64,000 bases of DNA from Naegleria gruberi (Eukaryota). Below the pieces are notes generated by a model. That model was not told the origin of the DNA and searched no databases. It saw only the letters and a list, made by a program, of their open reading frames with translations. The DNA is taken from NCBI GenBank assembly GCA_000004985.1, contig GG738850.1, one strand, 5' to 3'. Made by a program: the position numbers and the translations under genes. Below, piece after piece: positions 39,102-60,729 of the stretch. Within the stretch, counting starts at the first letter, position 1, and each line of letters begins with the position of its first letter.

Positions 39102-41500
39102 TTACACATCTGGGATTGTTTGATACAAGGCATCTATTTCGTTTTTGAAAACTTCTTTCAACTTTGGTCGGATAATCTTCATGGTTGGTGTTGTAACTCC
39201 GTATTGTTCAAATTCCTTTGGCAAAAGTTTAAGGCCACGAATAATTTCAAAACCTTTAAGCTTGGCTTGCTTGGCGACTGCGACAATATCAGCAAGTACT
39301 GCCTTAACAATATCTGGATCTTCACACAACTCTTCAATCTTATCAGCCAATTGTTCCTTACCATTATCTTTGGCATATTGTTGCAAAACTGAAATATTAG
39401 CAACAGCAAAACCTATAACACAGCTCTTGAATGAATCTCCATAAACCCAAATGCCAGTAATAAACTTAGATTGACTTAATTTTTGTTCAATATTTTCAGC
39501 AGCAATATATTCACCTTGACTCAATTTGAAAATATTCTTCTTTCTGTCAATAATTGAAATTGTACCATTTTCATTTTCCTTTCCAATGTCACCTGTATGG
39601 AACCATCCTTCAGCATCCCAAGCTTCCTTAGTCTTTTCTTCATCCTTATAATATCCCATTGAGACTGATGGACCACGTACACAAATTTCACCAGACTTAT
39701 TTAGTTCCATACTATAGTTCATTTCAGGCACATCATCCAATTTAACTTCAACTGATGGGACAACACAACCAATATGACTTTCAGAATAGTCATAAGGAAG
39801 TTGAATCAATGCAGCAGCACATGTTTCCTGAAAATTAGTTAGATTAAACAACATTCACAAAAACTTACAGTAAGACCATAACCTTGGACCAAACTACATC
39901 CGAAAATGACTCTCATGTATTGTTGAACTTCAGGACGGATTGGTGCACCACCTGAAAGACAAAATCTGATACGTCCACCAAAGTTCTTTCTGATAACACC
40001 CAAAACAACATCTGAGATTGGAGTAGATTTACCAGAGAGCATACCTTCTTCCTTAGATTTAATGGCCTTACTAATGGCCCATTGCTTTAATTTACCTTCC
40101 TTTGAGATCTTTTCTTTAATACCATCATATAATTTATCAAGAACTCTTGGTACAGCAGGGAAAGCAGTTGGTTTCAAAGCAATCAAATCATCCTTCAAAT
40201 TCTTAATATTACCTTCCCAGAAACCAATACTAGCACCTGCTTGCAAAAAGACAATTTCAACCATACGCTCCAAAATGTGTGCAAGTGGTAAATATGAAAC
40301 AACTTTCAAAAAATGTATCAATTCCAAAATCTACTATACTTACCACAATCATTTTCATTCAAATCAATAATATTGTGGGCAATACCAGCACTAGCAGCAA
40401 TAAAGTTCAAATGGGTAATGACAACACCCTTTGGCATACCAGTGGTTCCTGATGTGTAATTCAAACAAGCAATACTTTGAGGAGTTGGTGGAACATCTTC
40501 AATTGGGTTTTGTTTACCGAGTTCCATAACTTCATTTAAGGTGTATGACTTGATGTTAATCTTTTCCAAAGTTGATTTTTGTTCTTCAGTGATAGCATCA
40601 AAACAGATGACTGATTTAAGGTATTCAGCCTTTGGTGCCAATTTGATGACACTACCAAGGGTTTCTCCAGAACAACAAACTGAAACAACTTCACCATGAT
40701 TCATAATGAAATTTGATGATTCTTCTCCGAGAGTGTCATAGAGAGCAAGACTGACAAGAGATTGCTTATTGCAAGCCTCAACTGAAATTTGCCATTCTCT
40801 TCTATTCTTACTGTAAATAGCAATATGTTGGTTTGGGGAAATACCAATATGTCTCAAACCACAAGCAAGATTTCTGGACATATCATCAACTTCTTTAAAT
40901 GTAATGAATTCATATTCCATTAATAATTTAGATGAATCTGTTGGGTCTCTCATTCTTCTACCCAAGCAAGGTCTATCTGCGAATTTTTCAACACACTTTT
41001 TGAATGAATCATACAATGTGGAAATGTCCTCATATTTCTTAATAATCAAGGCATCTTGGTGGCCATTCTTTCTCTTGATACGAGGATCAGATCCACCAGA
41101 GACAGTTTGATTAGCTACTGGAGGATATGATTTAGATGAAGATGTAGTTGTTTTAATTCCCTTCAATTCCGGAACAAGGAATAAAGAAGCATCGGTCTTT
41201 GGTTCACTCTTTGGAACAGCCTCTACTGGTGGTTCCTCTTCCTTTGGTGGGGTTGTAATTTCTTCAACAAAATTATTAATATCCTTGTTTTCTTGATCTT
41301 TTTTTCTTTTAACCTTTTTCAATTATTAACAATAAAAACTCACCTTCAACTGTTGAAATATTTTCCTCTGTTTTCAAAGTTTCTGTGGTTGCCACTTCTT
41401 CAGTAGTAGTGGTACTACTTTCAATCTTTTCTTCTTGTTGCTTTTGTTCTTGTTCCTCCGTAACAGCAAGGGAATCGGCAAATGCTGAAAAATCACTCAT
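39102..41500 (-). CDS. Long-chain acyl-CoA synthetase (fatty-acid CoA ligase, AMP-binding superfamily), 4 exons: 41344..41500, 40344..41297, 39869..40236, 39102..39827 (about 734 aa)
   Basis: AMP-binding motif I YTSGTTGMPKGVVITH. ACSL linker CGASIGFWEGNIKNLKDDLIALKPTAFPAVPRVL is split by a 107-nt intron and re-formed in frame. Motif II GYGLT|ETCAA is re-formed across a 41-nt intron (GTAAGT...tctaactaattttcag). C-terminal GEICVRGPSV..GY..WFHTGDIG...IIDRKKNIFKLSQGEYIA. The first intron (42 or 48 nt) has two equally in-frame acceptors. Confidence 0.88.
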
Positions 41501-43240: not shown

Positions 43241-44311
43241 TCAATTCAAATTGCAACCAATTGCCTTGTTTGTTTGCACCTTAATTGAATGTAAAATTGG
43301 AGTTAATTTGGCAGTTAACTTGGATGGAACCTTTCCATTGGCCTTTTTTGATTCATCCATCAATAATACCAAGTCAACTGGAATTGCAACTATTGGAATG
43401 GCACTTTTAATCATCAATCCTGTTAAACTCATAATACCTGTGTGGCCATTAGTCAATCCATCAGATTTATCCAAATCTTGATGCTTGTGGCCTGTCAGAG
43501 ATTCAACAAATTGAAGAACGTTGACATTTCTATTACCAATTTTCATAACTCTACTATCAATGTATGGATCAGTCAACCTTTGTTCATAAATCTTTCTAAT
43601 CATTGCATTTACTGCTTGAGTATCCCTTTGTAAGAGTTCTTGAATGGACTTGGCTGATTTCTTGGCATGTTTCCATTCAGCAATTGATGCAGCAACTGTT
43701 GCTGTTGTTCCCACACCAACACAACCAATACCAGCACCTGAGGCAATTAATGAAACACCAAAAGTGAAAGGAGCAGCTACGATACCACCAAGAATCAAGG
43801 AAGCTCCAACAATATTGGTTTTTGTACCTTTCACTTTGGTCTTTGCTGTACTTTGTTGTTTCTTTTCTAATGATTGGATTAAATTGTCCAGCATTTTAAT
43901 GATTTCCAATCGTTGGACAAGCCACTCATTTGCAGATTGTTCAATGACAGCAAATCCACAATTTGGATTATCAAAATTGGTACTTTCAAATGTTGGGGTT
44001 TGAGGAAGAATTACATTGGTCTGGAAATTTGTTTGTTGACCACCTTTTTCATAGCTACTATTACTGGTTGTGGATTGAATTGGTTTAAAGTTATTGGTTA
44101 GTTGTAATGGTTGGGGAGTTATTGGTTGTTGTACAAATTGAGGATTAGAAGTGATAACTGGAAAATATTGAGCGTTTGGTTGTGGATACATGTATTGAGG
44201 AGGATTAGGTGGGTAAAGTTGATATTCTGGTGGTTGATAATTCACTCCAGGTTCTGTAATGTTTGGTTGAGTAGAGAAATGTGGATATTGAGGAGAAACT
44301 TGTTGATGCAT
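43241..44311 (-). CDS. Hypothetical membrane protein: P/Q/Y-rich N-terminus with a PPxY motif, central glycine-zipper hydrophobic hairpin, helical C-terminal domain (356 aa)
   Basis: N-terminus HQQVSPQYPHFSTQP...YQLYPPNPPQYMYPQP contains PPQY. The core IVGASLILGGIVAAPFTFGVSLIASGAGIGCVGVGTTATVAASIA is a GxxxG-rich hairpin. Confidence 0.55.
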   Translation of the reverse strand: MHQQVSPQYPHFSTQPNITEPGVNYQPPEYQLYPPNPPQYMYPQPNAQYFPVITSNPQFVQQPITPQPLQLTNNFKPIQSTTSNSSYEKGGQQTNFQTNVILPQTPTFESTNFDNPNCGFAVIEQSANEWLVQRLEIIKMLDNLIQSLEKKQQSTAKTKVKGTKTNIVGASLILGGIVAAPFTFGVSLIASGAGIGCVGVGTTATVAASIAEWKHAKKSAKSIQELLQRDTQAVNAMIRKIYEQRLTDPYIDSRVMKIGNRNVNVLQFVESLTGHKHQDLDKSDGLTNGHTGIMSLTGLMIKSAIPIVAIPVDLVLLMDESKKANGKVPSKLTAKLTPILHSIKVQTNKAIGCNLN

Positions 44312-47301: not shown

Positions 47302-48282
47302 ATGCCAAGAACACTTTTCTCTGCACTTCCACACGAAACACTTCAACACATATTATCTTTTGGAGTTTGCAATCTATCTTCTTGCAAAAGAGAGGAACTT
47401 TATTCATGTATTCGATTTGTTTCCAATTTTCAATCTTTAAACAAGCAACTTTCTTCCGAAATGCAACGCTATTTTAATGAATTTTGGTGGCTAGTAGTAA
47501 AGAAAACAGTTGGATATAATTTATTATTAGAAACTGAGTATAATCAATTAAAAGAGAAAATGATTGAAATTGGAGAATTAAAAAGGAAGGCATTAATTGC
47601 TAAATATATTACAAGAAATGCTCGTACAAGATATTCAGATGTGAGATTGTTAGTATTTGGCTATAAAAAAGTTGGAAAATCAGCAATTACCATTCAATTC
47701 TTACAAGGAGTTTTCATATCAGAATATTCATCATTATGTGACGATTCCTATCGTAAACCATATGAAGTAGATGGCCATTACGGATTACTAGATATTCTAG
47801 ATTGCTCTACAGATGCTGATCCATCATCTGCATTGAGGGATGGACATGTAATTTCTGGAAATAGTTATTTAATTGTTTGGGATGTTTCCAATACAGAAAA
47901 CTTATTGGAAAAGACTGACACCTTGTTAAGCCAATTATTCGAACTCAGATTCATTAGGAATACTCAGGTTATGAATAACTTTCCAATTGTATTTGCTTTG
48001 AATAAGACGGATTTATTAGAGGATTCCAATGGAAGTAATGTTATAATTGAGAAATGCAGAAATGCAATTAATGAAGTTATCAGAAAGAAAGAGTTGAATA
48101 ATTGTGCAATTATTGAATGTAGTGCTAAAAAAGGAGAAAATATACATTCTTTATTTGAAGAGTGTGTGAGAAGAGAGAGACTAATGACTGACCAAGATCA
48201 TTTATCTTTATTGAAGAATGTTTTGACACATGATTCGAAATGCATTCACCGAAGCACTAACAAATCATGCACCCTTCATTGA
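47302..48282 (+). CDS. F-box-like + Ras-like GTPase fusion protein (326 aa)
   Basis: N-terminal LPHETLQHILSFGVCNL is F-box-like. The GTPase domain has an intact P-loop FGYKKVGKS, NKTDL (NKxD) and CSAK, but switch II DxxGQ is replaced by LDILDCSTDAD. Confidence 0.65.
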   Translation: MPRTLFSALPHETLQHILSFGVCNLSSCKREELYSCIRFVSNFQSLNKQLSSEMQRYFNEFWWLVVKKTVGYNLLLETEYNQLKEKMIEIGELKRKALIAKYITRNARTRYSDVRLLVFGYKKVGKSAITIQFLQGVFISEYSSLCDDSYRKPYEVDGHYGLLDILDCSTDADPSSALRDGHVISGNSYLIVWDVSNTENLLEKTDTLLSQLFELRFIRNTQVMNNFPIVFALNKTDLLEDSNGSNVIIEKCRNAINEVIRKKELNNCAIIECSAKKGENIHSLFEECVRRERLMTDQDHLSLLKNVLTHDSKCIHRSTNKSCTLH

Positions 48283-48460: not shown

Positions 48461-49921
48461 ATGTCACAACATCATCACAACAATACTAGACCCAATTTAT
48501 TAGAAAATATTCCTTTGGAAGTTTGGCAGAGTTGTATTTTTGAATATTGGCTCGGACCCATTCATGAAATCAATCAGTGTTTGGATAAATTGAATATTGA
48601 TGAAATTGAAAAGTTTAAAAATGTAATTTATTCAAAGATTATTGATGGATTGGATTTGATGAGTGTGCGGAGTGTTCATAAACTTTGTTATTTGGTTTCT
48701 AGGAGATTTAGAGAATTGTTTATAAAGGAAATGGACGAGTTTTGGTTGAAGGTATCGAATATGTTGGAGATGGCTGTTTATTGGAGAAGGTATGAAACTT
48801 CAAAAGGTGCTACATTAGCACAGGGTGATATTACGGCCATAGATTCTATTCCCTATGTGCAAATGCAAAAATTAATTGAGGCCACTGAAATGAATCTAAA
48901 TAGAGAATATACTGATATTATTGATCCATCCATGTGTAGAGAACACTGGCATAATTCAAATATTAAAAAAAAGAATGATGTAAATACGGAGCTGATGCAT
49001 CAGGAATTTGTAAAGAGATTTGAAAAATTAATCATCTCTCAAGAAAAATACGAAAAGATTAGAAAAGTAACTCAACTCGATAGCTATGATTTGTTTTTAC
49101 ACAAGTCATTTATAATATCATTGGACATGATTTCATATTTCGATAGTGAAAGGTCTAATTCAGGTTATTCTAGTTTTAGCACTGAGACTCAATGTCAATT
49201 ATTCAATAAGGGGCTCTTTTCCTTAAAACCTAACCCTAACTCTCTTGGATTAATTATTTCACATGCAGAAAACTCAGAGGAAGTACTTAACATTGATTCA
49301 AAATTCATAGCTATTTCAATTTCAAACTCTGAATGGGCAGAAAAGCAGTTTACAAACATTCCAAATACTGTACAATATCTATGTCTTGAATTCAATCATC
49401 ACTCCTATTCAGGGTATAAGAGCTTGATAGATAAACGCCTATTTGATGAGAATGATCCTGTATTTCCCAATGTTCGTGATCTAACCATTAGAATCGGATA
49501 TCCTGAAGATGATGACTATTTCCTCCACAATTTAGTCATTGAAAAGAATATTCTTTCTGGAATAACAAGGACGAGATTTCCAAAATTGATAAGAATTTCA
49601 ATTTGTGGCTTTGGATCAATGGAATCTCTGTTAGATTGTGAAATTTTGAGCCAATTACCTTATGTGGAAATTATTCAATTCTCTCATGGATATGATTACG
49701 AATTGACTCGTCATTGGTCAGAAAGAAAAGTTCATGAATTAGTAACAAGACATCAAGATTCATTGATTCATCATTTGGTAGTTCATGCATGTATTAGTAG
49801 AATCAATAATGATGCTGATTATGGTTCAATTAAGGAATATTACAATCTCAGTAAGCCAAAGTTTGTGGCTTCCATTTCTCATTCCTCATTCAATGAATAT
49901 TACGAAAATTGCTTCGAATAA
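48461..49921 (+). CDS. F-box-like protein (486 aa)
   Basis: N-terminal LENIPLEVWQSCIFEYWLGPI is F-box-like and an N-terminal His run is present. The rest is unassigned, with an LRR-like periodicity late in the protein (...LTIRIGYPEDDDYFLHNLVIEKNILSGITRTRFPKLIRISICGF...). Confidence 0.55.
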   Translation: MSQHHHNNTRPNLLENIPLEVWQSCIFEYWLGPIHEINQCLDKLNIDEIEKFKNVIYSKIIDGLDLMSVRSVHKLCYLVSRRFRELFIKEMDEFWLKVSNMLEMAVYWRRYETSKGATLAQGDITAIDSIPYVQMQKLIEATEMNLNREYTDIIDPSMCREHWHNSNIKKKNDVNTELMHQEFVKRFEKLIISQEKYEKIRKVTQLDSYDLFLHKSFIISLDMISYFDSERSNSGYSSFSTETQCQLFNKGLFSLKPNPNSLGLIISHAENSEEVLNIDSKFIAISISNSEWAEKQFTNIPNTVQYLCLEFNHHSYSGYKSLIDKRLFDENDPVFPNVRDLTIRIGYPEDDDYFLHNLVIEKNILSGITRTRFPKLIRISICGFGSMESLLDCEILSQLPYVEIIQFSHGYDYELTRHWSERKVHELVTRHQDSLIHHLVVHACISRINNDADYGSIKEYYNLSKPKFVASISHSSFNEYYENCFE

Positions 49922-50146: not shown

Positions 50147-53100
50147 ATGGAGCGAACATTATCATCGACAAATTGGAATAGAAAATTTAATTGTTCCGAA
50201 CAACGACAACGATCATCAATTCATATTGTAAATTATTTAATAGTGATAATTATTAGTTTTATTCTCATTAGTCATGGAATTAATTCAGTGATGGGAAAGA
50301 TTAGATATTTTGATACAAATAGTTTATTTGAACAAAATTATGTTCACTCAACGACATCAACAAGTGCTTCTGATGATGATGATACGGATTATTCGGCCCT
50401 ATTTTCAGATACATCACCACAACTTTCACTATTTAATATTCACAAGATTATTTCAGCGAGATTTGTCTTTTCAAAATTTAACGAGTTTATTTATTTACCA
50501 TCGAAATCTAATTCTACAATGGTGTTTTACTTTTTGACAGTTCTTAAAGATGGATTTGTCAAAATTGATTGTGATGGTGTTATTAACACAAAGGATTCAA
50601 CAATTTCAAGTACACTTGTAGTTGGAAAATATAATTTGGAAGAAGAAAAAGTTGTTTGGGCTGCCAAGCAAGAAATTCAATACTTTTTCGGTAAACCATT
50701 TGCATACGTAACAGAAAAAGATGAGATTATTATCAGTTGTAATATCAAAGATGATCAAGGTATTTTCTCAAAAAAGTTCTTTTCAGTGAATGGTGTATCA
50801 ACAAAACAACCTTCATTCGTCAACAAGAATACTGCACGAGAAGTCAACATTGTCATGGAAGGTAGTATTGATCGATTTTCTACTATTGGTAATCAAAGTG
50901 AAGGGTTTTTAGTGTTTGGTGCTAAAAATTTGAGAAAAACAAACTCTCTTTACGATTCTAAAAAGGAGACTTTGCATTTAGAAACATCTGTTATGGCTTC
51001 TTTTTATGCTGATGGATCACCTAGATGGAATGTGAAATTAGGTATGTGTTTAGTTTCATTTTTATATTCATAATACTGATCCAAGTTTATGGAAATATTG
51101 AGTTTTTTGAGCTTCTTTCAGTTAAAGTAGTTAGTTTATCAAATAACACTATACCCATTGTTGCTTGCTTTAATTATCTTGGAAGTGGCAGCCTAAAAAC
51201 TTTTGAGAGCCTTCAGGATACCTTTGTAGCACAAACAGATTCAGGATTCGAAAATACTAATTTCAGACTTTTTTCAAAGTACTTTTCAGCTGGAGTTTAT
51301 AGTATTTCTGAAACAGGGGTGTTTTCAGAACTATTTTCATTAAGAGCTTATCCTACAGGTGATTCAACAAGTGCCAACATTCTTGTTAAAGGGTTTTACT
51401 ATGACAAGGACAAGAAAATCTACATTTTATTAATTTATATGAAAGGATATCTTACTTTTTCTAAAACCAGTCATGGAGGATCCAATATGGAAGGAAATAT
51501 AATTTACACATCTACCAACAGAACTGGAGATTATATTCTTGTGAAATATACTGAGGGAGGTACTCCAGTATGCGTTCCTACATCATACATTGGTGATGAT
51601 CCTATTGTAACTACAAATTATTTTATCAATAAGAGAGTTTCTATTGAATCCTACAATAGTTCAAAGCTGCATTTGGAAGTGATAGATATTGAAACAGGAA
51701 CTATCAGGGATAATTTGGCAATTGACATTCAATCCGAAGACCCGTATGGCATTCAGTACGAATTATTTTATGAAAAGAGAAGATATTTAATTGTAAGAGG
51801 AACAACTCAAAATAATGGAACAATATTAATTAATAACAAGTTTTATGTAAAGCCATCAAAGGGTCAGTCAGAATTGGTATTTGTTCTGTACTTGAATACT
51901 CACCCAGAATATGGTAAACGTGAATTGGAATGTGATCAACAACTCAAATGCAGAGCGGTAAGTTTGAATTTTCAATCATTTTTAATTGTTCGATTAGAAT
52001 GCAAATGACAAGATTTGTCAAGCACATGGTATTTGTAATATGGAACAAAAATGTGAATGTGATGAATTCTATATGGGAGATTTTTGTGAAACATATTATA
52101 GAAATACTTTTATAGCAGTTATGGCAACTGTAGGAGTCATATTGATTACTCTGACAGGAAGTGTTTTAACAGGCATCGGAATGTATGCTTACAGAACAAT
52201 AGCTAAACGTCTAAAGCGTTTGCAGAGCAAGGTTAAGGCTGAACAAGAATTGGAACAAAAATTATTGGAATTTGTTGGACTTAATATTAACGAAACTACG
52301 TTTAATTTCAAAACATGGCTCATTCCATTCGAACAATTAACAATTGACAGAGAAATTGCTAGCTCTAATGGAAGAACAATTTTCCAAGGCTCATGGAAAG
52401 GAACATCTGTTGCCATTAAGAAGGTTAGACTAGAAGATTCCTTTGATTACCATGAGGATACTAAGGAATTGAACCTGGATAAAACATTGGAAAGAGAAGC
52501 AGCCATTTTGAGTAGAGTTAGACATCCTAATATTTTGAGATTCTGGGGTTTGGCATTTACTCAAACTGAACAATTTTTAGTGAGTGAGTTATTTACCTTG
52601 AGTATGGATCAAATTATTGATGAGGCAAAAAGAGGAGATCTCTACATTCCAATCCTTTGTAAACTTCAAATTCTACACGATATTGCATGTTCAATGACCT
52701 ATTTACATGAATTTGATCCTCCAATTCTTCACAGAAATTTAAAACCATCCAATATTATGGTAAGTTTTCAGGAAATTTTATTGATTTTCCTTACAATTTC
52801 AAGTTGAGTGAAGACGTCAGATATGGAAAAATACTTTCTGCTGTAAAGCCAAAAATCGCTGACTTTGGATTGTCTACACACTTGAGAGAAGATAATGTTC
52901 TTACGATGCAAATCGGTAATGTTCTATACTCAGATCCTCTCATCTTTAAGGGTGAAAGATATTCTGAAAAGTGTGATGTTTACAGTTTCTCAATGATAAT
53001 GTACGAAATGTTTTTTGAAACAGAACCATACAAAACTTCAGATAAGGTTGGAGAAATTAAGGAAAATTATAATCAATACTCAGTTCTTCCAAACAAGATA

Positions 53101-53343
53101 TCTGAAGGGTACAGACCAAAGATTCCTTTCACAAAAACTCTTGAATCGATTGGTGATTGGATGGAATCTAATTTAGAGTTAATCAATGAACGAATTACAG
53201 ATCCAGAAAATTTAGCAAAATGCATCCAATCCTATTCTGAACTAATGAAGAAATGTTGGTCTGGTGATCAAGATGAAAGACCTTCTTTCCGTGCCATCCA
53301 AGTTTCTATCCAGCAAATTATCAAAGCTTTGGAAATTAAATAA
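50147..53343 (+). CDS. Single-pass receptor-like protein kinase (TKL-like), 4 exons: 50147..51041, 51086..51957, 52013..52759, 52804..53343 (about 1,017 aa); predicted pseudokinase (HRD to HRN)
   Basis: Signal/anchor ILISHGINSV, then a large Cys-poor ectodomain. An EGF-like module CRA|ICQAHGICNMEQKCECDEFYMGDFCE is assembled across the 55-nt intron 51958..52012. TM segment FIAVMATVGVILITLTGSVLTGIGMYAY. Kinase elements: GSWKGTSVAIKK (VAIK), E in helix C, HRNLKPSNIM (catalytic Asp replaced by Asn), IADFGLS (DFG), APE-like region, CW..RPSF. The first and last introns are 44 nt (GTATGT and GTAAGT donors); phases verified against all four ORF-track frames. Confidence 0.8.
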
Positions 53344-53649: not shown

Positions 53650-56166
53650 TTGAAGATGCAGGCATTGTTGAAAAGGAAGAAAGTTGCCAAGTTTAATTTT
53701 AAAATAACAATTCTCCACTTGATGAAATTACCAAAGAGTGGAGTTATATTGTATATAACATGGAAGAGAGGAAAGAAACATAAAGGAGAAACAAAAAAAG
53801 CCTTTGCCAAAGATAAAACAGCATCATGGGAAGAAGAAATTGAATTTAAAGGAACATTGTTTAAAAATTCTAAAGGAAAATATAAGAAGAAGTTTTTGGA
53901 ATTACATCTTCACCAAGTAGGAGATAAAAAGAAGAAGAGTGAGATTGGACACTTATCTATTAATTTAGCAGATTATTCATCTTTGCAAATGGAAAGTCGA
54001 TCCGAAACTAGAACATTTACTGTACCTATGTGGGGAGGATCATCAAATGGTGAATTGAAAATCAAGATTGAAAGTAATCCAAGATTGAAATCCGATCCAA
54101 ATGATTTAACAACATTTACTGATAATACCACCATGACTGATGCTACTGAAGATAGTGAAGAAGATAATCAAGGAGGTTTTAGATCGAAAGGATTTAGAGA
54201 ATATGGTGAGGATGATGATGATCATTTCGGAGAGCATGATGATGAAGAAATTGTAGAAAATGAAGACTTTGATATGGAAGATGATGATAATAGATTTAAT
54301 CGTGAAGATGATGATGTAAGAAGTGGTGGAAGTAATGACCAAGCTAGTGATAGGGAGGATTTCAATAATTCACCTCCTAGAGGTTCTTCTTCAAGAGTGA
54401 CCAGGAGCAGAGATGATTTGAGTGATGGTTTGGATGACGACATGGATGAAGACTTTAATAGTGGAGATGAAGAATTGGATGAAGAACCAGTTGCCAAGAA
54501 ACCAGAACCAAAACCACTTTCAGGTGTTAGTGCCTTTGAAAGAAGAGGTGTTATTGGATCAAGAAATAAGGACAGAAGACGTCAAAATATGAGTTTAACG
54601 AATGAACTTGATTCTGATGCCTTCTTGAAGAATTTGGAAAAAACCAATGAATCAATTCAACAAAGACAGAAGAGAAAAGTCATTGAAGAACCTGTTAAAA
54701 CAAATACTAATAATAATAATGCTTCTGATGATGAAAACAGTATGACTGGAGACGACCAATCAAGTAGCCACAATGAAGAATTGGAAAAAGCCAAGAAGGA
54801 ATTGGAGAAACTTGAAATTAATAGACGAGTAACTGAAGAAAAATTAGCAAAGGCTCAAAAAGAAAACAACGAGAAGAACCTTGTTTTTTATCTAATTACA
54901 GACAAATTACCTGAATATTCACGTGAAATTCCAGTTTCTGCTCCATTGATTTATAAGGCTCTCAAACATTGGGATTCTTTCAAGCCAGAAAATAATTCAT
55001 TAATTTCCAAGATTATTACTGCCCTGACTTCTGTCATTAGAAGTAATGACACTAAATTTGATACATTATGCTATTGGTTATCTGTCATGTTAAGTTTACT
55101 CACCCTTTTACAAAAAGACTTCCCAATTACTCATTCCCACGAACAAGGTGTTCAAGTTGACTTACTCAAGGATTTAGATTTGTCTTCAATCAATGTTGGT
55201 AGTAGAGGTATCCTAGATGATGTTTTGCCATCAAAGGAAACAACTGTTGGATATATTGAAATGTTAGAAGCAGTTGTTAAAACAGTATTAGAATTGGATA
55301 AGGAAAAGGGTATAAGAACAACTAGCATTTCACTTGTTGCTTCAGATAATGGTAATGATGATGACAACTCATTTGCTTTTGAGGGTCCTGTTTCTCAATT
55401 CAAAAAGGATTTATTGGAGTTAATTCATAAGATTTTTGTGATTCTGTACCAAGATGTGATTCGTAAATTACTTCCACTTCTTTTTGAAGGTTTATTTGGT
55501 AAGAATGGGCAACCATCTTCAAATGCTGATGCAAACAAAATTGGAAAAGTACTTGATGAAACATTCAAGCTATTCAAGAATAACTTTATACCAAAGACAT
55601 TCAGAGAACAATTTTTCGGACAAGTATTCTACTTTATTAATTGCTTTGCTTTCAATGCAGTGTATTCACATAAGAGAAATTACTGCAATATGAGTTCTGG
55701 TATTATGTTAAAGATGAGCGTCTCTATATTGGAACTATGGGCTGAAGAAAGAAACTTTGAGTTTTGTACTTCCAAACAATTCACACAAGGAGTTGTTATT
55801 ACAGGAATAGGGATGCTTTTCTTGAGACAAACAGCTGACGTGATGATTACTGCCAAGTCTTCACTTGTTGATAAATCCTCAAGACAATTGGTTTGTCCAT
55901 TGCTTTCTGATACTCAATTGAAAAGAGCTTTGGAAAATTACAAGAAGGACGATTTTGATAATGTTGTTCCTTCATCAGTGCTGAATAATATTCACTCTGA
56001 TAAGAGTAAGCCAAAATATTTATTGAATGGATCCCTTATCTTTAAACCAAACCTCGAGTACCTTTCACAAAATTCCTCATCTCTTAATATTATGAACGAT
56101 GCTATCTTCCAAAACAATATACCTGCACAATTACAGGACGAGGAATTCGATTTCCTCACCAAATAA
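53650..56166 (+). CDS. Protein with N-terminal NT-C2 (EEIG1/EHBP1-type C2) domain, acidic D/E-rich middle and conserved helical C-terminal domain (838 aa)
   Basis: N-terminus KFNFKITILHLMKLPKSGVILYITWKRGKKHKGET...FLELHLHQVG...GHLSINLADY has the NT-C2 pattern. The acidic stretch lies at about 54100-54500. The C-terminus LLPLLFEGLFG...FYFINCFAFNAVYSH...ILELWAEE resembles DIL/PMI1-type tails. An (AAC)n microsatellite sits in the 5' region at about 53620-53650. Confidence 0.6.
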   Translation: MKMQALLKRKKVAKFNFKITILHLMKLPKSGVILYITWKRGKKHKGETKKAFAKDKTASWEEEIEFKGTLFKNSKGKYKKKFLELHLHQVGDKKKKSEIGHLSINLADYSSLQMESRSETRTFTVPMWGGSSNGELKIKIESNPRLKSDPNDLTTFTDNTTMTDATEDSEEDNQGGFRSKGFREYGEDDDDHFGEHDDEEIVENEDFDMEDDDNRFNREDDDVRSGGSNDQASDREDFNNSPPRGSSSRVTRSRDDLSDGLDDDMDEDFNSGDEELDEEPVAKKPEPKPLSGVSAFERRGVIGSRNKDRRRQNMSLTNELDSDAFLKNLEKTNESIQQRQKRKVIEEPVKTNTNNNNASDDENSMTGDDQSSSHNEELEKAKKELEKLEINRRVTEEKLAKAQKENNEKNLVFYLITDKLPEYSREIPVSAPLIYKALKHWDSFKPENNSLISKIITALTSVIRSNDTKFDTLCYWLSVMLSLLTLLQKDFPITHSHEQGVQVDLLKDLDLSSINVGSRGILDDVLPSKETTVGYIEMLEAVVKTVLELDKEKGIRTTSISLVASDNGNDDDNSFAFEGPVSQFKKDLLELIHKIFVILYQDVIRKLLPLLFEGLFGKNGQPSSNADANKIGKVLDETFKLFKNNFIPKTFREQFFGQVFYFINCFAFNAVYSHKRNYCNMSSGIMLKMSVSILELWAEERNFEFCTSKQFTQGVVITGIGMLFLRQTADVMITAKSSLVDKSSRQLVCPLLSDTQLKRALENYKKDDFDNVVPSSVLNNIHSDKSKPKYLLNGSLIFKPNLEYLSQNSSSLNIMNDAIFQNNIPAQLQDEEFDFLTK

Positions 56167-59040: not shown

Positions 59041-60729
59041 ATGGGAACCCCAGATTGGGGTAATGATTTAACACTCAACTATGACACTTGCAATATTATG
59101 TCACTCACACAAAAACAATCAAAAAAAATGAGTAAACGAAATAGACAAGATTTGGAAAATCAATTAATTAATTATTCGGAGGAAAATAATATGGACGAGA
59201 AAGCAAAAAAGGTTTCAATGCAACGACAAGAAATATTTTCAGATGATGTTTGTTTTGAAATAATTTGCATGCTCGATGATTCGTGGTTTATTTTGAATAA
59301 TTGTTCATTGATTTCAAAACAATTCTTTAATGTGATCAAGGAACGTTCAAAACTTGTTATTCAATTTAATCAAAAATTTACAGAAACAAGAATTGAATTA
59401 TTCATGAAAAGTCAATTTATGAATAGTATTGTTCATCTTAAATTTTATAGAAGCTCGCTTGACTCTATAGAACAAGTCAAATTAATAAGTGAAATGAAAC
59501 AATTAAAATTACTTGATATTCGTGGAATTCAAATAGGAGATGAAGGAGCCAAATTTATAAGTGAAATGAAACAATTGAGATCACTTAGTATTTATAACAA
59601 TCAAATTGGTGTAGCAGGAGTCAAATCAATAAGTGAAATGAAACAATTAACATCACTTGCAATTTGTAACAATCGAATTGGTGATGAAGGAGTCAAATTT
59701 ATAAGTGAAATGAAACAATTAACGTCACTTACTATATGTTACAATCAAATTGGTGTTGAAGGAGTAAAATCCATAATTGAAATGAACCAATTAAAATCAC
59801 TTAATATATCTTACAATGAAATTGGAGATGAAGGCGCGAAATCAATATGTGAAATGAAACAATTAACATCACTTAATATATGTGACAATCGAATTGGTGT
59901 AGAAGGAATCAAATCAATATGTGAAATGAAACAATTAACATTACTTAATATATCTAAGAATCAAATTGGTGATGAAGGAGTCAAATTCATAATTGAAATG
60001 AAGCAATTAACGTCACTTGACATATGTTACAATCGAATTGGTGATGAAGGAGCCAAATCCATAAGTGAAATGAAACAATTGAAATCACTTGATATTTATA
60101 ATAATCAAATTAGTGATGAAGGAGTCAAATTTATAAGTGAAATGAAACAATTAACATCACTTGATATTAGTGCAAATGAAATTGGTGTAGAAGGAACCAA
60201 ATCAATATGTGAAATGAAACAATTAACATTACTTAATATATCTAAGAATCAAATTGGTGATGAAGGAGTCAAATTCATAATTGAAATGAAGCAATTAACG
60301 TCACTTGACATATGTTACAATCGAATTGGTGATGAAGGAGCCAAATCCATAAGTGAAATGAAACAATTGAAATCACTTGATATTTATAATAATCAAATTA
60401 GTGATGAAGGAGTCAAATTTATAAGTGAAATGAAACAATTAACATCACTTGATATTAGTGCAAATGAAATTGGCGTTGAAGGAGTCAAATCAATAAGTGA
60501 AATGAAACAATTAACATCACTTAATATTAATAACAATGAAATTGGTGATGAAGGAGCCAAATTTATAAGTGAAATGAAACAATTAACATCACTTAATATA
60601 TGTTACAATCGAATTGGTGTTGAAGGAGTCAAATTAATAGGTGAAATGAAACAATTGAAATCACTTAATATTAATTACCAAAAGACGAAATCTAAGGATT
60701 TGGTATGGATTACAAATGAGACTGCTTAA
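59041..60729 (+). CDS. Leucine-rich-repeat protein of the ribonuclease-inhibitor (RNI/NLR-type) class, about 17 tandem 24-residue repeats (562 aa)
   Basis: Repeat consensus (K/S)ISEMKQLTSL(N/D)I(S/C/Y)xNxIGDEGVKF, i.e. LxxLxLxxNxIGxxGxxxL. The 120-aa N-terminal region is non-repetitive, and there is no NACHT/NB-ARC domain in this ORF. Confidence 0.8.
   Translation: MGTPDWGNDLTLNYDTCNIMSLTQKQSKKMSKRNRQDLENQLINYSEENNMDEKAKKVSMQRQEIFSDDVCFEIICMLDDSWFILNNCSLISKQFFNVIKERSKLVIQFNQKFTETRIELFMKSQFMNSIVHLKFYRSSLDSIEQVKLISEMKQLKLLDIRGIQIGDEGAKFISEMKQLRSLSIYNNQIGVAGVKSISEMKQLTSLAICNNRIGDEGVKFISEMKQLTSLTICYNQIGVEGVKSIIEMNQLKSLNISYNEIGDEGAKSICEMKQLTSLNICDNRIGVEGIKSICEMKQLTLLNISKNQIGDEGVKFIIEMKQLTSLDICYNRIGDEGAKSISEMKQLKSLDIYNNQISDEGVKFISEMKQLTSLDISANEIGVEGTKSICEMKQLTLLNISKNQIGDEGVKFIIEMKQLTSLDICYNRIGDEGAKSISEMKQLKSLDIYNNQISDEGVKFISEMKQLTSLDISANEIGVEGVKSISEMKQLTSLNINNNEIGDEGAKFISEMKQLTSLNICYNRIGVEGVKLIGEMKQLKSLNINYQKTKSKDLVWITNETA
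59476..60690 (+). repeat. 72-bp-period coding tandem repeat (about 17 units) including a near-perfect 288-bp (4-unit) tandem duplication at about 59905-60192 / 60193-60480
   Basis: Two 288-nt blocks, both starting aaatcaatatgtgaaatgaaacaattaacattacttaatatatctaagaatcaaattggtgatgaaggagtcaaattcataattg..., occur at an offset of exactly 288 nt. They differ at only 2-3 positions (gaatc vs gaacc; ggtgtag vs ggcgttg). Confidence 0.8.

What the first reader, a model, noticed from the sequence alone, without database searches (positions are those of the whole stretch)
50147..53343. Receptor-like kinase predicted to be a pseudokinase (HRD to HRN) with an EGF-like module assembled across an intron
All kinase subdomain hallmarks are present (VAIK, helix-C Glu, DFG, C-terminal CW...RP) but the catalytic-loop Asp is Asn (HRNLKPSN), the classic lesion of signalling pseudokinases. 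The ectodomain is about 600 aa and Cys-poor, except for a six-Cys EGF-like motif that spans the exon 2/3 junction. Together with the neighbouring F-box-GTPase genes this looks like a surface-sensing module.
Basis: partly seen in the sequence, partly recalled or inferred. Interest (0 to 1): 0.6.

Follow-up and report, generated by a model that had tools for sequence, protein, structure and literature searches.

The report
Naegleria receptor with a dead kinase
This is an annotated Naegleria gruberi gene for a single-pass membrane receptor whose intracellular kinase domain lost its catalytic aspartate and ATP-loop glycines yet stays strongly conserved; it is a sound but fairly ordinary example of a receptor pseudokinase.

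Summary
Window 50147-53343 (+) is a four-exon gene, identical to N. gruberi XP_002681397.1 (1022 aa, annotated only as "serine/threonine protein kinase"). It encodes a signal peptide, an orphan Cys-poor ectodomain, a six-Cys EGF-like module split by intron 2, one TM helix and a TKL-type kinase domain. That domain reads HRNLKPSN, with the Asn codon AAT at 52736-52738.

The Asn is not a sequencing error. It is present in an independent 99.25%-identical metagenome contig and in three other Naegleria-clade orthologues (AAT, AAT, AAC).

The pseudokinase reading gains further support:
- All three Gly-loop glycines are gone.
- The second catalytic-loop Asn is also lost in two lineages.
- The Willaertia magna orthologue keeps GxGxxG and HRD (GAT), so the lesions arose within the Naegleria clade.
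- The kinase domain is still the best-conserved part (71-73% identity, against 51-52% for the ectodomain; dN/dS 0.04).

The idea of a "surface-sensing module" with neighbouring F-box-GTPase genes is not supported: the neighbours are not conserved and the F-box match is insignificant.

Catalytic inactivity and cell-surface location are inferred, not shown. Verdict: a new member of a known kind, of modest interest.

The parts
50147..51041 (+). Exon 1: start codon, N-terminal signal peptide/anchor (hydrophobic core aa 27-50, 50225-50296) and the first half of the ectodomain
   Evidence: Translation and splice sites. Kyte-Doolittle peak at aa 22-50. Identical to XP_002681397.1.
51042..51085 (+). 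Intron 1 (44 nt, GTATGT...AAG, phase 1). Present in N. gruberi, N. lovaniensis and L003; absent in L002 and Willaertia.
   Evidence: Orthologue alignments show that 'VYGNIEFFELLS' downstream is coding. tblastn HSPs are continuous across this point in L002 and L004.
51086..51957 (+). Exon 2: second half of the orphan ectodomain, plus C581 and the first EGF cysteine (C587)
51958..51997 (+). Intron 2 (40 nt, GTAAGT...TAG, phase 0), inside the EGF-like module. Its position is conserved in all five lineages.
51949..52087 (+). EGF-like module, C587...C619 (six Cys), interrupted by intron 2
   Evidence: Pfam EGF_2 at 23.5 bits against a cut-off of 22.1. The Cys are invariant in the four aligned orthologues. 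Coordinates.
51998..52759 (+). Exon 3: rest of the EGF module, the TM helix, the juxtamembrane helix, the kinase N-lobe and the catalytic loop up to ...HRNLKPSNIM
52109..52192 (+). Single transmembrane helix (aa 627-654)
   Evidence: Kyte-Doolittle peak 2.29 over aa 624-653. Coordinates.
52193..52273 (+). Conserved juxtamembrane helix RTIAKRLKRLQSKVKAEQELEQKLLEF (aa 655-681)
   Evidence: 57-68% identity between species. The AF2 model has a helix at residues 2-25 of the cytoplasmic fragment.
52328..53310 (+). Pseudokinase domain (aa ~700-1012; genomic span includes intron 3), TKL-like
   Evidence: Pfam. PDB sequence search. AF2 model with pLDDT 82.4 and pTM 0.83, and Foldseek top hits BRAF, RIPK2, CTR1 and Roco4.
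52355..52390 (+). Degenerate Gly-rich loop IASSNGRTIFQG: none of the three GxGxxG glycines remains
   Evidence: Alignments against Willaertia and 14 other kinases that all keep GxGxxG.
52736..52738 (+). AAT = Asn836, replacing the catalytic-base Asp of HRD
   Evidence: Same codon in the independent contigs L005/L006. AAT, AAT and AAC in the orthologues, GAT in Willaertia.
52760..52803 (+). Intron 3 (44 nt, GTAAGT...AAG, phase 0), directly after the catalytic loop. Its position is conserved in all five lineages.
52804..53343 (+). Exon 4: DFG (52861-52869), SDP in place of APE (52927-52941), the C-lobe with a conserved insert of about 40 aa, CW...RP (53254-53283) and the stop codon TAA

Best explanation
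The gene encodes a single-copy type-I membrane receptor found only in Naegleria and its close relative Willaertia. From N- to C-terminus it has a signal peptide, an orphan all-beta ectodomain (possibly propeller-like), one EGF-like module, a TM helix, a conserved juxtamembrane helix and a TKL-type kinase domain.

In the Naegleria clade the kinase domain became a pseudokinase after the split from Willaertia. A single G-to-A change turned the catalytic-base Asp into Asn, and the ATP-clamping glycines of the Gly-rich loop were all replaced. The domain fold and most of its sequence are nevertheless held under strong purifying selection.

Most likely mechanism (inferred, not shown): the ectodomain binds an extracellular ligand or surface. 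Receptor clustering is passed through the TM and juxtamembrane helix. The pseudokinase domain then signals without phosphotransfer, as an allosteric partner or docking scaffold for an active cytoplasmic or membrane kinase, as HER3, KSR and plant receptor pseudokinases do.

Shown here: gene structure, domain content, the lesions, their phylogenetic distribution and the selection on the domain. Inferred: loss of activity, cell-surface location, ligand binding and the partner kinase.
For: 1. Identity and architecture..

2. HRN is real and conserved. The window and independent contigs L005/L006 carry AAT. N. lovaniensis has AAT, L002 AAT and L003 AAC; the AAT/AAC difference is synonymous and keeps Asn. 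Willaertia has GAT.

3. Further catalytic decay.
- The Gly-loop reads ASSNGR / NTSGK / EQDGK and STSGK in L003, against GEGIDG in Willaertia.
- The PKA-N171 equivalent is N, T, N and I in the four Naegleria-clade lineages.
- All 14 other kinases aligned, and Willaertia, keep both GxGxxG and HRD.

4. The domain is under constraint.
- The kinase domain is 71-73% identical among three deep Naegleria lineages, against 51-52% for the ectodomain.
- Nei-Gojobori dN/dS between N. lovaniensis and L003 is 0.038 for the kinase domain (dS 0.63, 328 codons) and 0.076 for the ectodomain.

5. The fold is complete. The AF2 model has pLDDT 82.4 and pTM 0.83, and is closest to BRAF, RIPK2, CTR1 and Roco4.

6. 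Asp-to-Asn at this position is a standard kinase-dead lesion.
- The PDB hits include a CTR1 chain (3p86) whose deposited sequence reads HRNLK, and RIP2K(D146N).
- A review states that the change 'usually abolishes catalysis' (PMC7586955).
- HER3 has the same HRNxxxxN together with DFG (PMC13259870, Table 2).

7. No paralogue shares the ectodomain. A full HMM scan of 1.84 billion representatives found only the orthologue clusters plus one EGF-only match.
Against: - No biochemical data exist.
- The beta3 Lys (VAIK), the alphaC Glu and the DFG Asp are invariant, and the catalytic-loop Lys is kept. Nucleotide binding, or HER3-like residual activity, therefore cannot be excluded (PMC7586955 notes activity in HER3 and JAK2 JH2).
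- APE is already degenerate in the Willaertia protein (YMDPI), which I presume to be active. Not every deviation therefore marks inactivity.
- Activity of the Willaertia protein is itself only inferred from its motifs.
- Plasma-membrane location is inferred from the signal peptide, the TM helix, the EGF module and six N-x-S/T sequons.
- The ectodomain model is of low confidence (pLDDT 54).
- No partner kinase was identified.
Confidence: 0.7

Rival explanations
1. It is still a working, low-activity or mechanistically atypical protein kinase, and the Asn and the odd Gly-loop are tolerated, as reported for HER3 and JAK2 JH2.
For: - VAIK Lys, alphaC Glu, DFG Asp and the HRNLK Lys are invariant in all lineages.
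- N. gruberi and L002 keep the catalytic-loop Asn.
- dN/dS of 0.038 shows the domain matters.
Against: - Unlike HER3, which keeps GxGxxG (PMC13259870, Table 2), all three Gly-loop glycines are lost.
- The metal-binding catalytic-loop Asn is free to vary: T in N. lovaniensis, I in L003. That is not expected if phosphotransfer were under selection.
- Asp-to-Asn appears among the retrieved PDB entries for the nearest relatives: RIP2K(D146N) by title, and a CTR1 chain, 3p86, whose sequence reads HRNLK. That these are engineered kinase-dead mutants is my own recollection.
Confidence: 0.2
2. The Asn is a sequencing or assembly error, or the locus is a decaying pseudogene.
For: The N. lovaniensis assembly copy contains two 1-nt frameshifts.
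Against: - The same codon is in an independent metagenome assembly that differs at 13 positions and 4 gaps, and Asn is in three other lineages.
- Intact ORFs with conserved introns are found in N. gruberi, L002, L003 and Willaertia.
- dN/dS is 0.04-0.1.
- Both N. lovaniensis frameshifts sit in T runs. Adding one T to each restores sequence that matches L003, so they look like homopolymer undercalls.
Confidence: 0.02
3. The receptor forms a co-inherited functional module with the adjacent F-box-GTPase genes.
For: - A Ras-family GTPase gene lies 2 kb upstream (47302-48282; Pfam Ras E=1.6e-17).
- A small GTPase gene also sits directly upstream, on the opposite strand, in L002 and Willaertia.
Against: - The N. 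gruberi neighbours have no tblastn match at E<=1e-3 anywhere in the fetched loci L001-L004, i.e. within up to 10 kb of the orthologous receptor gene.
- N. lovaniensis and L003 have a UVB_sens_prot gene upstream instead.
- The F-box-like match is insignificant (E=0.082, 13.1 bits against 24.3) and the 486-aa ORF has no Pfam match at all.
- Eukaryotic gene adjacency is weak evidence of shared function (general knowledge).
Confidence: 0.05

Closest known systems
HER3/ErbB3 (human receptor tyrosine pseudokinase)
   Same: Single-pass receptor whose kinase domain has HRNxxxxN while keeping the beta3 Lys and DFG (PMC13259870, Table 2). It signals allosterically (my own knowledge).
   Different: - HER3 is a tyrosine-kinase-group protein with an intact GxGxxG loop and an alphaC His.
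- It arose by duplication and pairs with active ErbB paralogues.
- Here the domain is TKL-like, the Gly-loop is lost, the alphaC Glu is kept, the ectodomain is unrelated, and no paralogue shares the ectodomain.
Willaertia magna KAL9644574.1 (orthologue, 1072 aa)
   Same: Same architecture: orphan ectodomain, seven conserved Cys, TM, juxtamembrane helix, kinase with the same C-lobe insert. Introns 2 and 3 are at the same positions. Identity is 37% in the ectodomain and 53% in the kinase domain.
   Different: Keeps GEGIDG and HRDLKPSN (codon GAT), so it is predicted to be active. It lacks intron 1.
PSKH2 (vertebrate CAMK-group pseudokinase)
   Same: A lineage-specific HRD-to-HRN swap in an otherwise kinase-like domain, proposed as a model for kinase-to-pseudokinase transition (PMC7586955).
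   Different: Cytoplasmic CAMK-group protein with an active paralogue, PSKH1. It is not a receptor.
Plant receptor-like pseudokinases (e.g. DRIK1; BIR2 and STRUBBELIG from my own knowledge)
   Same: Type-I receptors with TKL-group (RLK/Pelle) pseudokinase domains that act through partner kinases. Plant LRR-RLKs are among the best profile hits (P0016 and P0017, E about 1e-22 to 1e-18). The DRIK1 paper was listed.
   Different: They have LRR or other known ectodomains and belong to large paralogous families. No phylogeny here places the Naegleria protein inside RLK/Pelle, and its best PDB sequence matches are MLK/CTR1/Roco4/RAF.
KSR-RAF and RIPK2 (TKL kinases regulated by kinase-domain dimerisation)
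   Same: BRAF and RIPK2 are the closest structural neighbours of the predicted domain. KSR is a TKL pseudokinase that allosterically activates RAF (my own knowledge).
   Different: These are soluble proteins with different regulatory domains. A dimer interface was not tested here.
Entamoeba transmembrane kinases (TMKs)
   Same: Amoeboid-protist single-pass receptor kinases, some predicted to be inactive (my own knowledge, not tested here).
   Different: TMK ectodomains are Cys-rich (CXXC/CXC repeats) and form a large family. This ectodomain is Cys-poor and single-copy.

Membership tests
Eukaryotic protein kinase superfamily (Pfam PF00069/PF07714) | Significant match to the kinase-domain profile over both lobes | tested here: met
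   Pkinase E=1.1e-34, 120.5 bits against a cut-off of 31.7, aa 710-996. PK_Tyr_Ser-Thr E=1.5e-30. The AF2 model is a bilobal kinase fold with pTM 0.83.
TKL (tyrosine-kinase-like) group | Closest similarity to MLK/RAF/CTR1/LRRK-Roco/RIPK/IRAK kinases rather than to other groups | tested here: met
   Top PDB sequence hits are MLK4 8.5e-25, CTR1 1.5e-24, MLK1, Roco4, DLK, ZAK, BRAF and TAK1. Top Foldseek hits are BRAF, RIPK2, CTR1 and Roco4. No group-level phylogeny was made.
Pseudokinase (sequence definition) | Loss of at least one of: the beta3 Lys (VAIK), the catalytic Asp (HRD), the metal-binding Asp (DFG) | tested here: met
   HRD Asp is Asn836 (AAT, 52736-52738), conserved in four lineages. 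The definition is as given in the abstract of PMC13519141 and in PMC13259870.
Pseudokinase (functional definition) | No phosphotransfer activity | not testable with these tools
   Needs a recombinant protein assay. Indirect support comes from loss of all GxGxxG glycines and a variable catalytic-loop Asn.
EGF-like domain (Pfam EGF_2, PF07974) | Six-cysteine pattern C-x-C...C scoring above the family's gathering threshold | tested here: met
   23.5 bits against a cut-off of 22.1, E=7.2e-5, aa 575-607, a marginal pass. The six Cys are invariant in the four aligned orthologues. The ectodomain profile also hit an EGF-repeat protein through these columns only (P0010).
Type-I single-pass membrane receptor | N-terminal signal sequence, one internal TM helix, and the catalytic-type domain C-terminal to it | tested here: met
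   There are only two hydrophobic segments, aa 22-50 and 624-653, and the kinase domain follows the second. Actual membrane location was not tested.
Plant RLK/Pelle (IRAK) family | Monophyly with RLK/Pelle/IRAK kinase domains | tested here: inconclusive
   Plant LRR-RLKs score 1e-22 to 1e-18 in the profile search, but PDB sequence matches favour MLK/CTR1/Roco4. No tree was built.
ErbB/HER3 receptor tyrosine pseudokinases | Tyrosine-kinase-group domain, ErbB L-domain/furin-like ectodomain, intact GxGxxG with HRN | tested here: not met
   The kinase is TKL-like. The ectodomain has no Pfam match other than EGF. The Gly-loop is lost. It shares only the HRN lesion, so it may work like HER3 but is not a member.
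Beta-propeller ectodomain | Circular array of four-stranded antiparallel blades | tested here: inconclusive

The most novel reading that the evidence does not exclude
A single-copy receptor changed from an active kinase (Willaertia: GxGxxG, HRD) to a conserved pseudokinase (Naegleria clade: no Gly-loop glycines, HRN) without a detectable gene duplication leaving an active twin with the same ectodomain. The usual route to a pseudokinase is duplication followed by loss of activity, as reviewed for EphA10 and EphB6. This would give a natural before/after pair for studying how a receptor rewires from catalytic to purely allosteric signalling, on an ectodomain fold seen nowhere else, in a genus that includes the brain-eating amoeba N. 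fowleri.
Probability: 0.4. Interest if true: 0.5.

Novelty: new member of a known kind. Interest (0 to 1): 0.3.

Why it matters
Receptor pseudokinases are well described in animals and plants, but I found none described in Heterolobosea within the paper library searched. This gene is annotated simply as a serine/threonine kinase.

If the inference holds, three things follow:
- The annotation should be corrected.
- Naegleria would have a receptor that signals without catalysis.
- The Willaertia/Naegleria orthologue pair would be a clean natural experiment on the kinase-to-pseudokinase transition in a single-copy gene.

A close relative of N. lovaniensis (L003, species not identified) carries the same gene. 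Whether N. fowleri has it was not tested; if it does, the receptor would be a lineage-restricted surface protein of possible interest in that pathogen.

None of this overturns current understanding. It adds one case to a known class.

Tried and rejected
- First splice choice for intron 1 (51042-51121, giving 1010 aa). Rejected after orthologue comparison; the correct intron is 51042-51085.
- Word-indexed protein searches with the single protein and with a four-sequence profile. They returned only P0001 and P0002 as family members, plus generic kinases, and did not return N. gruberi or Willaertia. The exhaustive HMM scan was needed.
- Ectodomain structure from six sequences. Low confidence (pLDDT 54), so the propeller-like similarity is only a hint. 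An hhalign comparison of the N- and C-terminal halves found no repeat. The afdb50 library was unavailable.
- Synteny test of the neighbours. Only the AMP-binding gene (40318-41322, minus strand) is shared, and only with N. lovaniensis.
- F-box check of the upstream genes. Not significant.
- Other kinase or ectodomain copies within the 64-kb window. None found.
- Literature searches for Naegleria pseudokinases or receptor kinases and for the accession numbers. Nothing specific. Kwon et al. 2019 (PMC6997932) is not held, so I could not check whether D2V3K2 is in their pseudokinase catalogue.
- IRE1/PERK-like ER stress sensor. Considered and rejected: there is no KEN/RNase domain and the kinase is TKL-like.
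Full report
**What is there**

The window is AT-rich eukaryotic DNA (GC about 0.32). Reading 50147-53343 on the + strand gives a four-exon gene with short GT..AG introns. My first model used an 80-nt intron 1. Comparison with two homologues showed that the segment translating to 'VYGNIEFFELLS' is coding. Intron 1 is therefore 51042-51085.

The final model has exons 50147-51041, 51086-51957, 51998-52759 and 52804-53343 and gives 1022 aa. It is identical to Naegleria gruberi NEG-M XP_002681397.1 / EFC48653.1 / UniProt D2V3K2, annotated only as 'serine/threonine protein kinase'. The gene is therefore already in the databases. Its pseudokinase character is not flagged, and no paper in the searchable library names it.

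**Checking the observation**

- Pfam finds Pkinase (E=1.1e-34) and PK_Tyr_Ser-Thr (E=1.5e-30) over aa 692-998. It also finds an EGF_2 match just above threshold (23.5 against 22.1 bits) at aa 575-607.
- VAIK, the alphaC Glu (LEREA), DFG and CW...RP are present. The catalytic loop reads HRNLKPSN, with AAT at 52736-52738.
- Two hydrophobic segments (aa 22-50 and 624-653) give a type-I topology. The ectodomain has only four Cys outside the EGF region and six N-x-S/T sequons.
- Intron 2 lies between the first and second EGF cysteines. The intron position is conserved in all five lineages examined. The seven Cys are invariant in the four aligned full-length orthologues.

**Is the Asn an error?**

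No.
- An independent metagenome contig (ENA ERZ929261, run ERR1078381; L005) is 99.25% identical over 3476 nt, with 13 mismatches and 4 gaps. It carries the same CAC AGA AAT, as does the Logan assembly L006 of the same run.
- Orthologues were recovered from N. lovaniensis (L001), a JGI metagenome contig (L002) and a Logan contig close to N. lovaniensis (L003). They read HRNIKPST (AAT), HRNLKTEN (AAT) and HRNIKPSI (AAC). The AAT/AAC difference is a synonymous change that keeps Asn.

- The Gly-rich loop has lost all three glycines of GxGxxG. It reads IASSNGRTIFQG in N. gruberi, IVNTSGKTILQG in N. lovaniensis, ISEQDGKVILKG in L002 and IVSTSGKTVLQG in L003.
- APE reads SDP.
- The catalytic-loop Asn (PKA N171 equivalent) is retained in N. 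gruberi and L002, but is Thr in N. lovaniensis and Ile in L003. This is one of the very few variable positions in an otherwise 94%-identical pair.
- In an alignment with 14 other kinases and the Willaertia orthologue, all keep GxGxxG and HRD.

**Where the lesions arose**

An exhaustive profile scan with the ectodomain against 1.84 billion representative proteins found only six proteins. These were the Naegleria-clade copies, one Willaertia magna protein (KAL9644574.1, 1072 aa) and one unrelated EGF-only match.

The Willaertia protein has the same architecture and shares introns 2 and 3. It reads IVGEGIDGIIVKG and HRDLKPSN, with codon GAT. A single G-to-A transition and the Gly-loop decay therefore happened after the Naegleria/Willaertia split and before the Naegleria lineages sampled here diverged.

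L002 and Willaertia both lack intron 1, and both have UCH and small-GTPase genes immediately upstream. This suggests that L002 is the earliest-branching HRN lineage. It is a suggestion only; no tree was built.

**Is the dead domain still used?**

Yes.
- Among N. gruberi, N. lovaniensis and L002 the kinase domain is 71-73% identical. The ectodomain is 51-52%, the EGF module 38-52% and the TM helix 21-28%.
- Between N. lovaniensis and L003, Nei-Gojobori dN/dS is 0.038 for the kinase domain (dS 0.63, 328 codons). It is 0.093 for EGF+TM+juxtamembrane and 0.076 for the ectodomain.
- AlphaFold2 predicts a complete bilobal kinase preceded by a long juxtamembrane helix (pLDDT 82.4, pTM 0.83).
- Its nearest solved structures are BRAF, RIPK2, CTR1 and Roco4. 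The best sequence matches in the PDB are MLK4, CTR1, MLK1, Roco4, DLK, ZAK, BRAF and TAK1. This is a TKL-type domain.
- Two of the retrieved entries carry the same Asp-to-Asn change. The CTR1 chain 3p86 reads HRNLK in the printed alignment. From my own knowledge this is the D676N kinase-dead mutant. The other is RIP2K(D146N).

**The ectodomain**

**Mechanism**

- Shown: the architecture, the lesions, their derived state and purifying selection.
- Inferred from established pseudokinase biology: the receptor senses something outside the cell and signals through a non-catalytic kinase fold, by allosteric pairing with or scaffolding of an active kinase. The basis is that HRD-to-HRN 'usually abolishes catalysis' (PMC7586955) and that HER3 carries HRNxxxxN with DFG (PMC13259870, Table 2).
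- Because no paralogue shares the ectodomain, a HER2/HER3-style pairing with a sister receptor is unlikely. The partner, if any, is unknown.
- The main rival is residual or atypical activity, as reported for HER3 and JAK2 JH2. Retention of Lys, Glu and DFG favours at least nucleotide binding. Loss of the Gly-loop and the drifting catalytic-loop Asn argue against selected phosphotransfer.

**The neighbourhood claim**

- Upstream lie a Ras-family GTPase gene (47302-48282) and a 486-aa ORF with no Pfam match (48461-49921). Downstream is an NT-C2/DIL protein.
- Neither upstream gene has a tblastn counterpart at E<=1e-3 anywhere in the fetched loci L001-L004, i.e. within up to 10 kb of the orthologous receptor gene.
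- The neighbours differ from species to species.
- The F-box-like signal is insignificant (E=0.082).
- The 'surface-sensing module' is therefore not supported.

**Verdict**

The module idea is not supported. This is a new, uncharacterised member of a well-known class, receptor pseudokinases, in a lineage where I found none described. Its one unusual feature is that the transition appears to have occurred in a single-copy orthologue. Interest is modest (0.3).

Noticed in passing
L001 (N. lovaniensis PYSW02000014.1) around 10861 and 11709: The orthologous ORF is broken by two 1-nt frameshifts, both in T runs. Adding one T to each restores sequence that matches the independent L003 copy. The annotated protein C9374_001885 (973 aa) bridges both with false introns and lacks about 68 residues. 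These are probably homopolymer undercalls in the assembly.
   Followed up: partly
window 51042-51085; L002 and L004: Intron 1 is present in N. gruberi, N. lovaniensis and L003 but absent in L002 and Willaertia. Introns 2 and 3 are shared by all five. This implies an intron gain within Naegleria, or two losses.
   Followed up: partly
L002 1807-5060 and L004 4192-7803: The metagenome lineage L002 and Willaertia share a UCH deubiquitinase gene and a small GTPase gene, both on the opposite strand, directly upstream of the receptor gene. This microsynteny is lost in N. gruberi, N. lovaniensis and L003.
   Followed up: partly
window 43241-44311 (-): A 356-aa ORF matches Pfam Apolipoprotein L (PF05461; E=6.1e-8, 32.9 bits against a cut-off of 25.9). 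An ApoL-like protein in a heterolobosean amoeba is unexpected.
   Followed up: no
window 47302-48282 (+) and 48461-49921 (+): A Ras-family GTPase with a 114-aa N-terminal extension that begins 'LPHETLQHILSF', and a 486-aa ORF that begins 'IPLEVWQSCIFEYW'. Both starts resemble the beginning of an F-box, but the Pfam F-box-like match is only E=0.082 for the first and absent for the second.
   Followed up: partly
window 53650-56166 (+): An NT-C2 (E=3.2e-27) plus DIL (E=3.1e-20) domain protein with a long acidic low-complexity middle region.
   Followed up: no
window 59041-60729 (+): A 562-aa leucine-rich-repeat protein (LRR_6 E=3.7e-73).
   Followed up: no
window 52927-53200 (aa ~885-975): A conserved C-lobe insert of about 40 aa (…KVGEIKENYNQYSVLPNKISEGYRPKIPFTKTLESIGDWMESNLELINERI…) is shared even with Willaertia. 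It is specific to this family and may be a docking surface.
   Followed up: no
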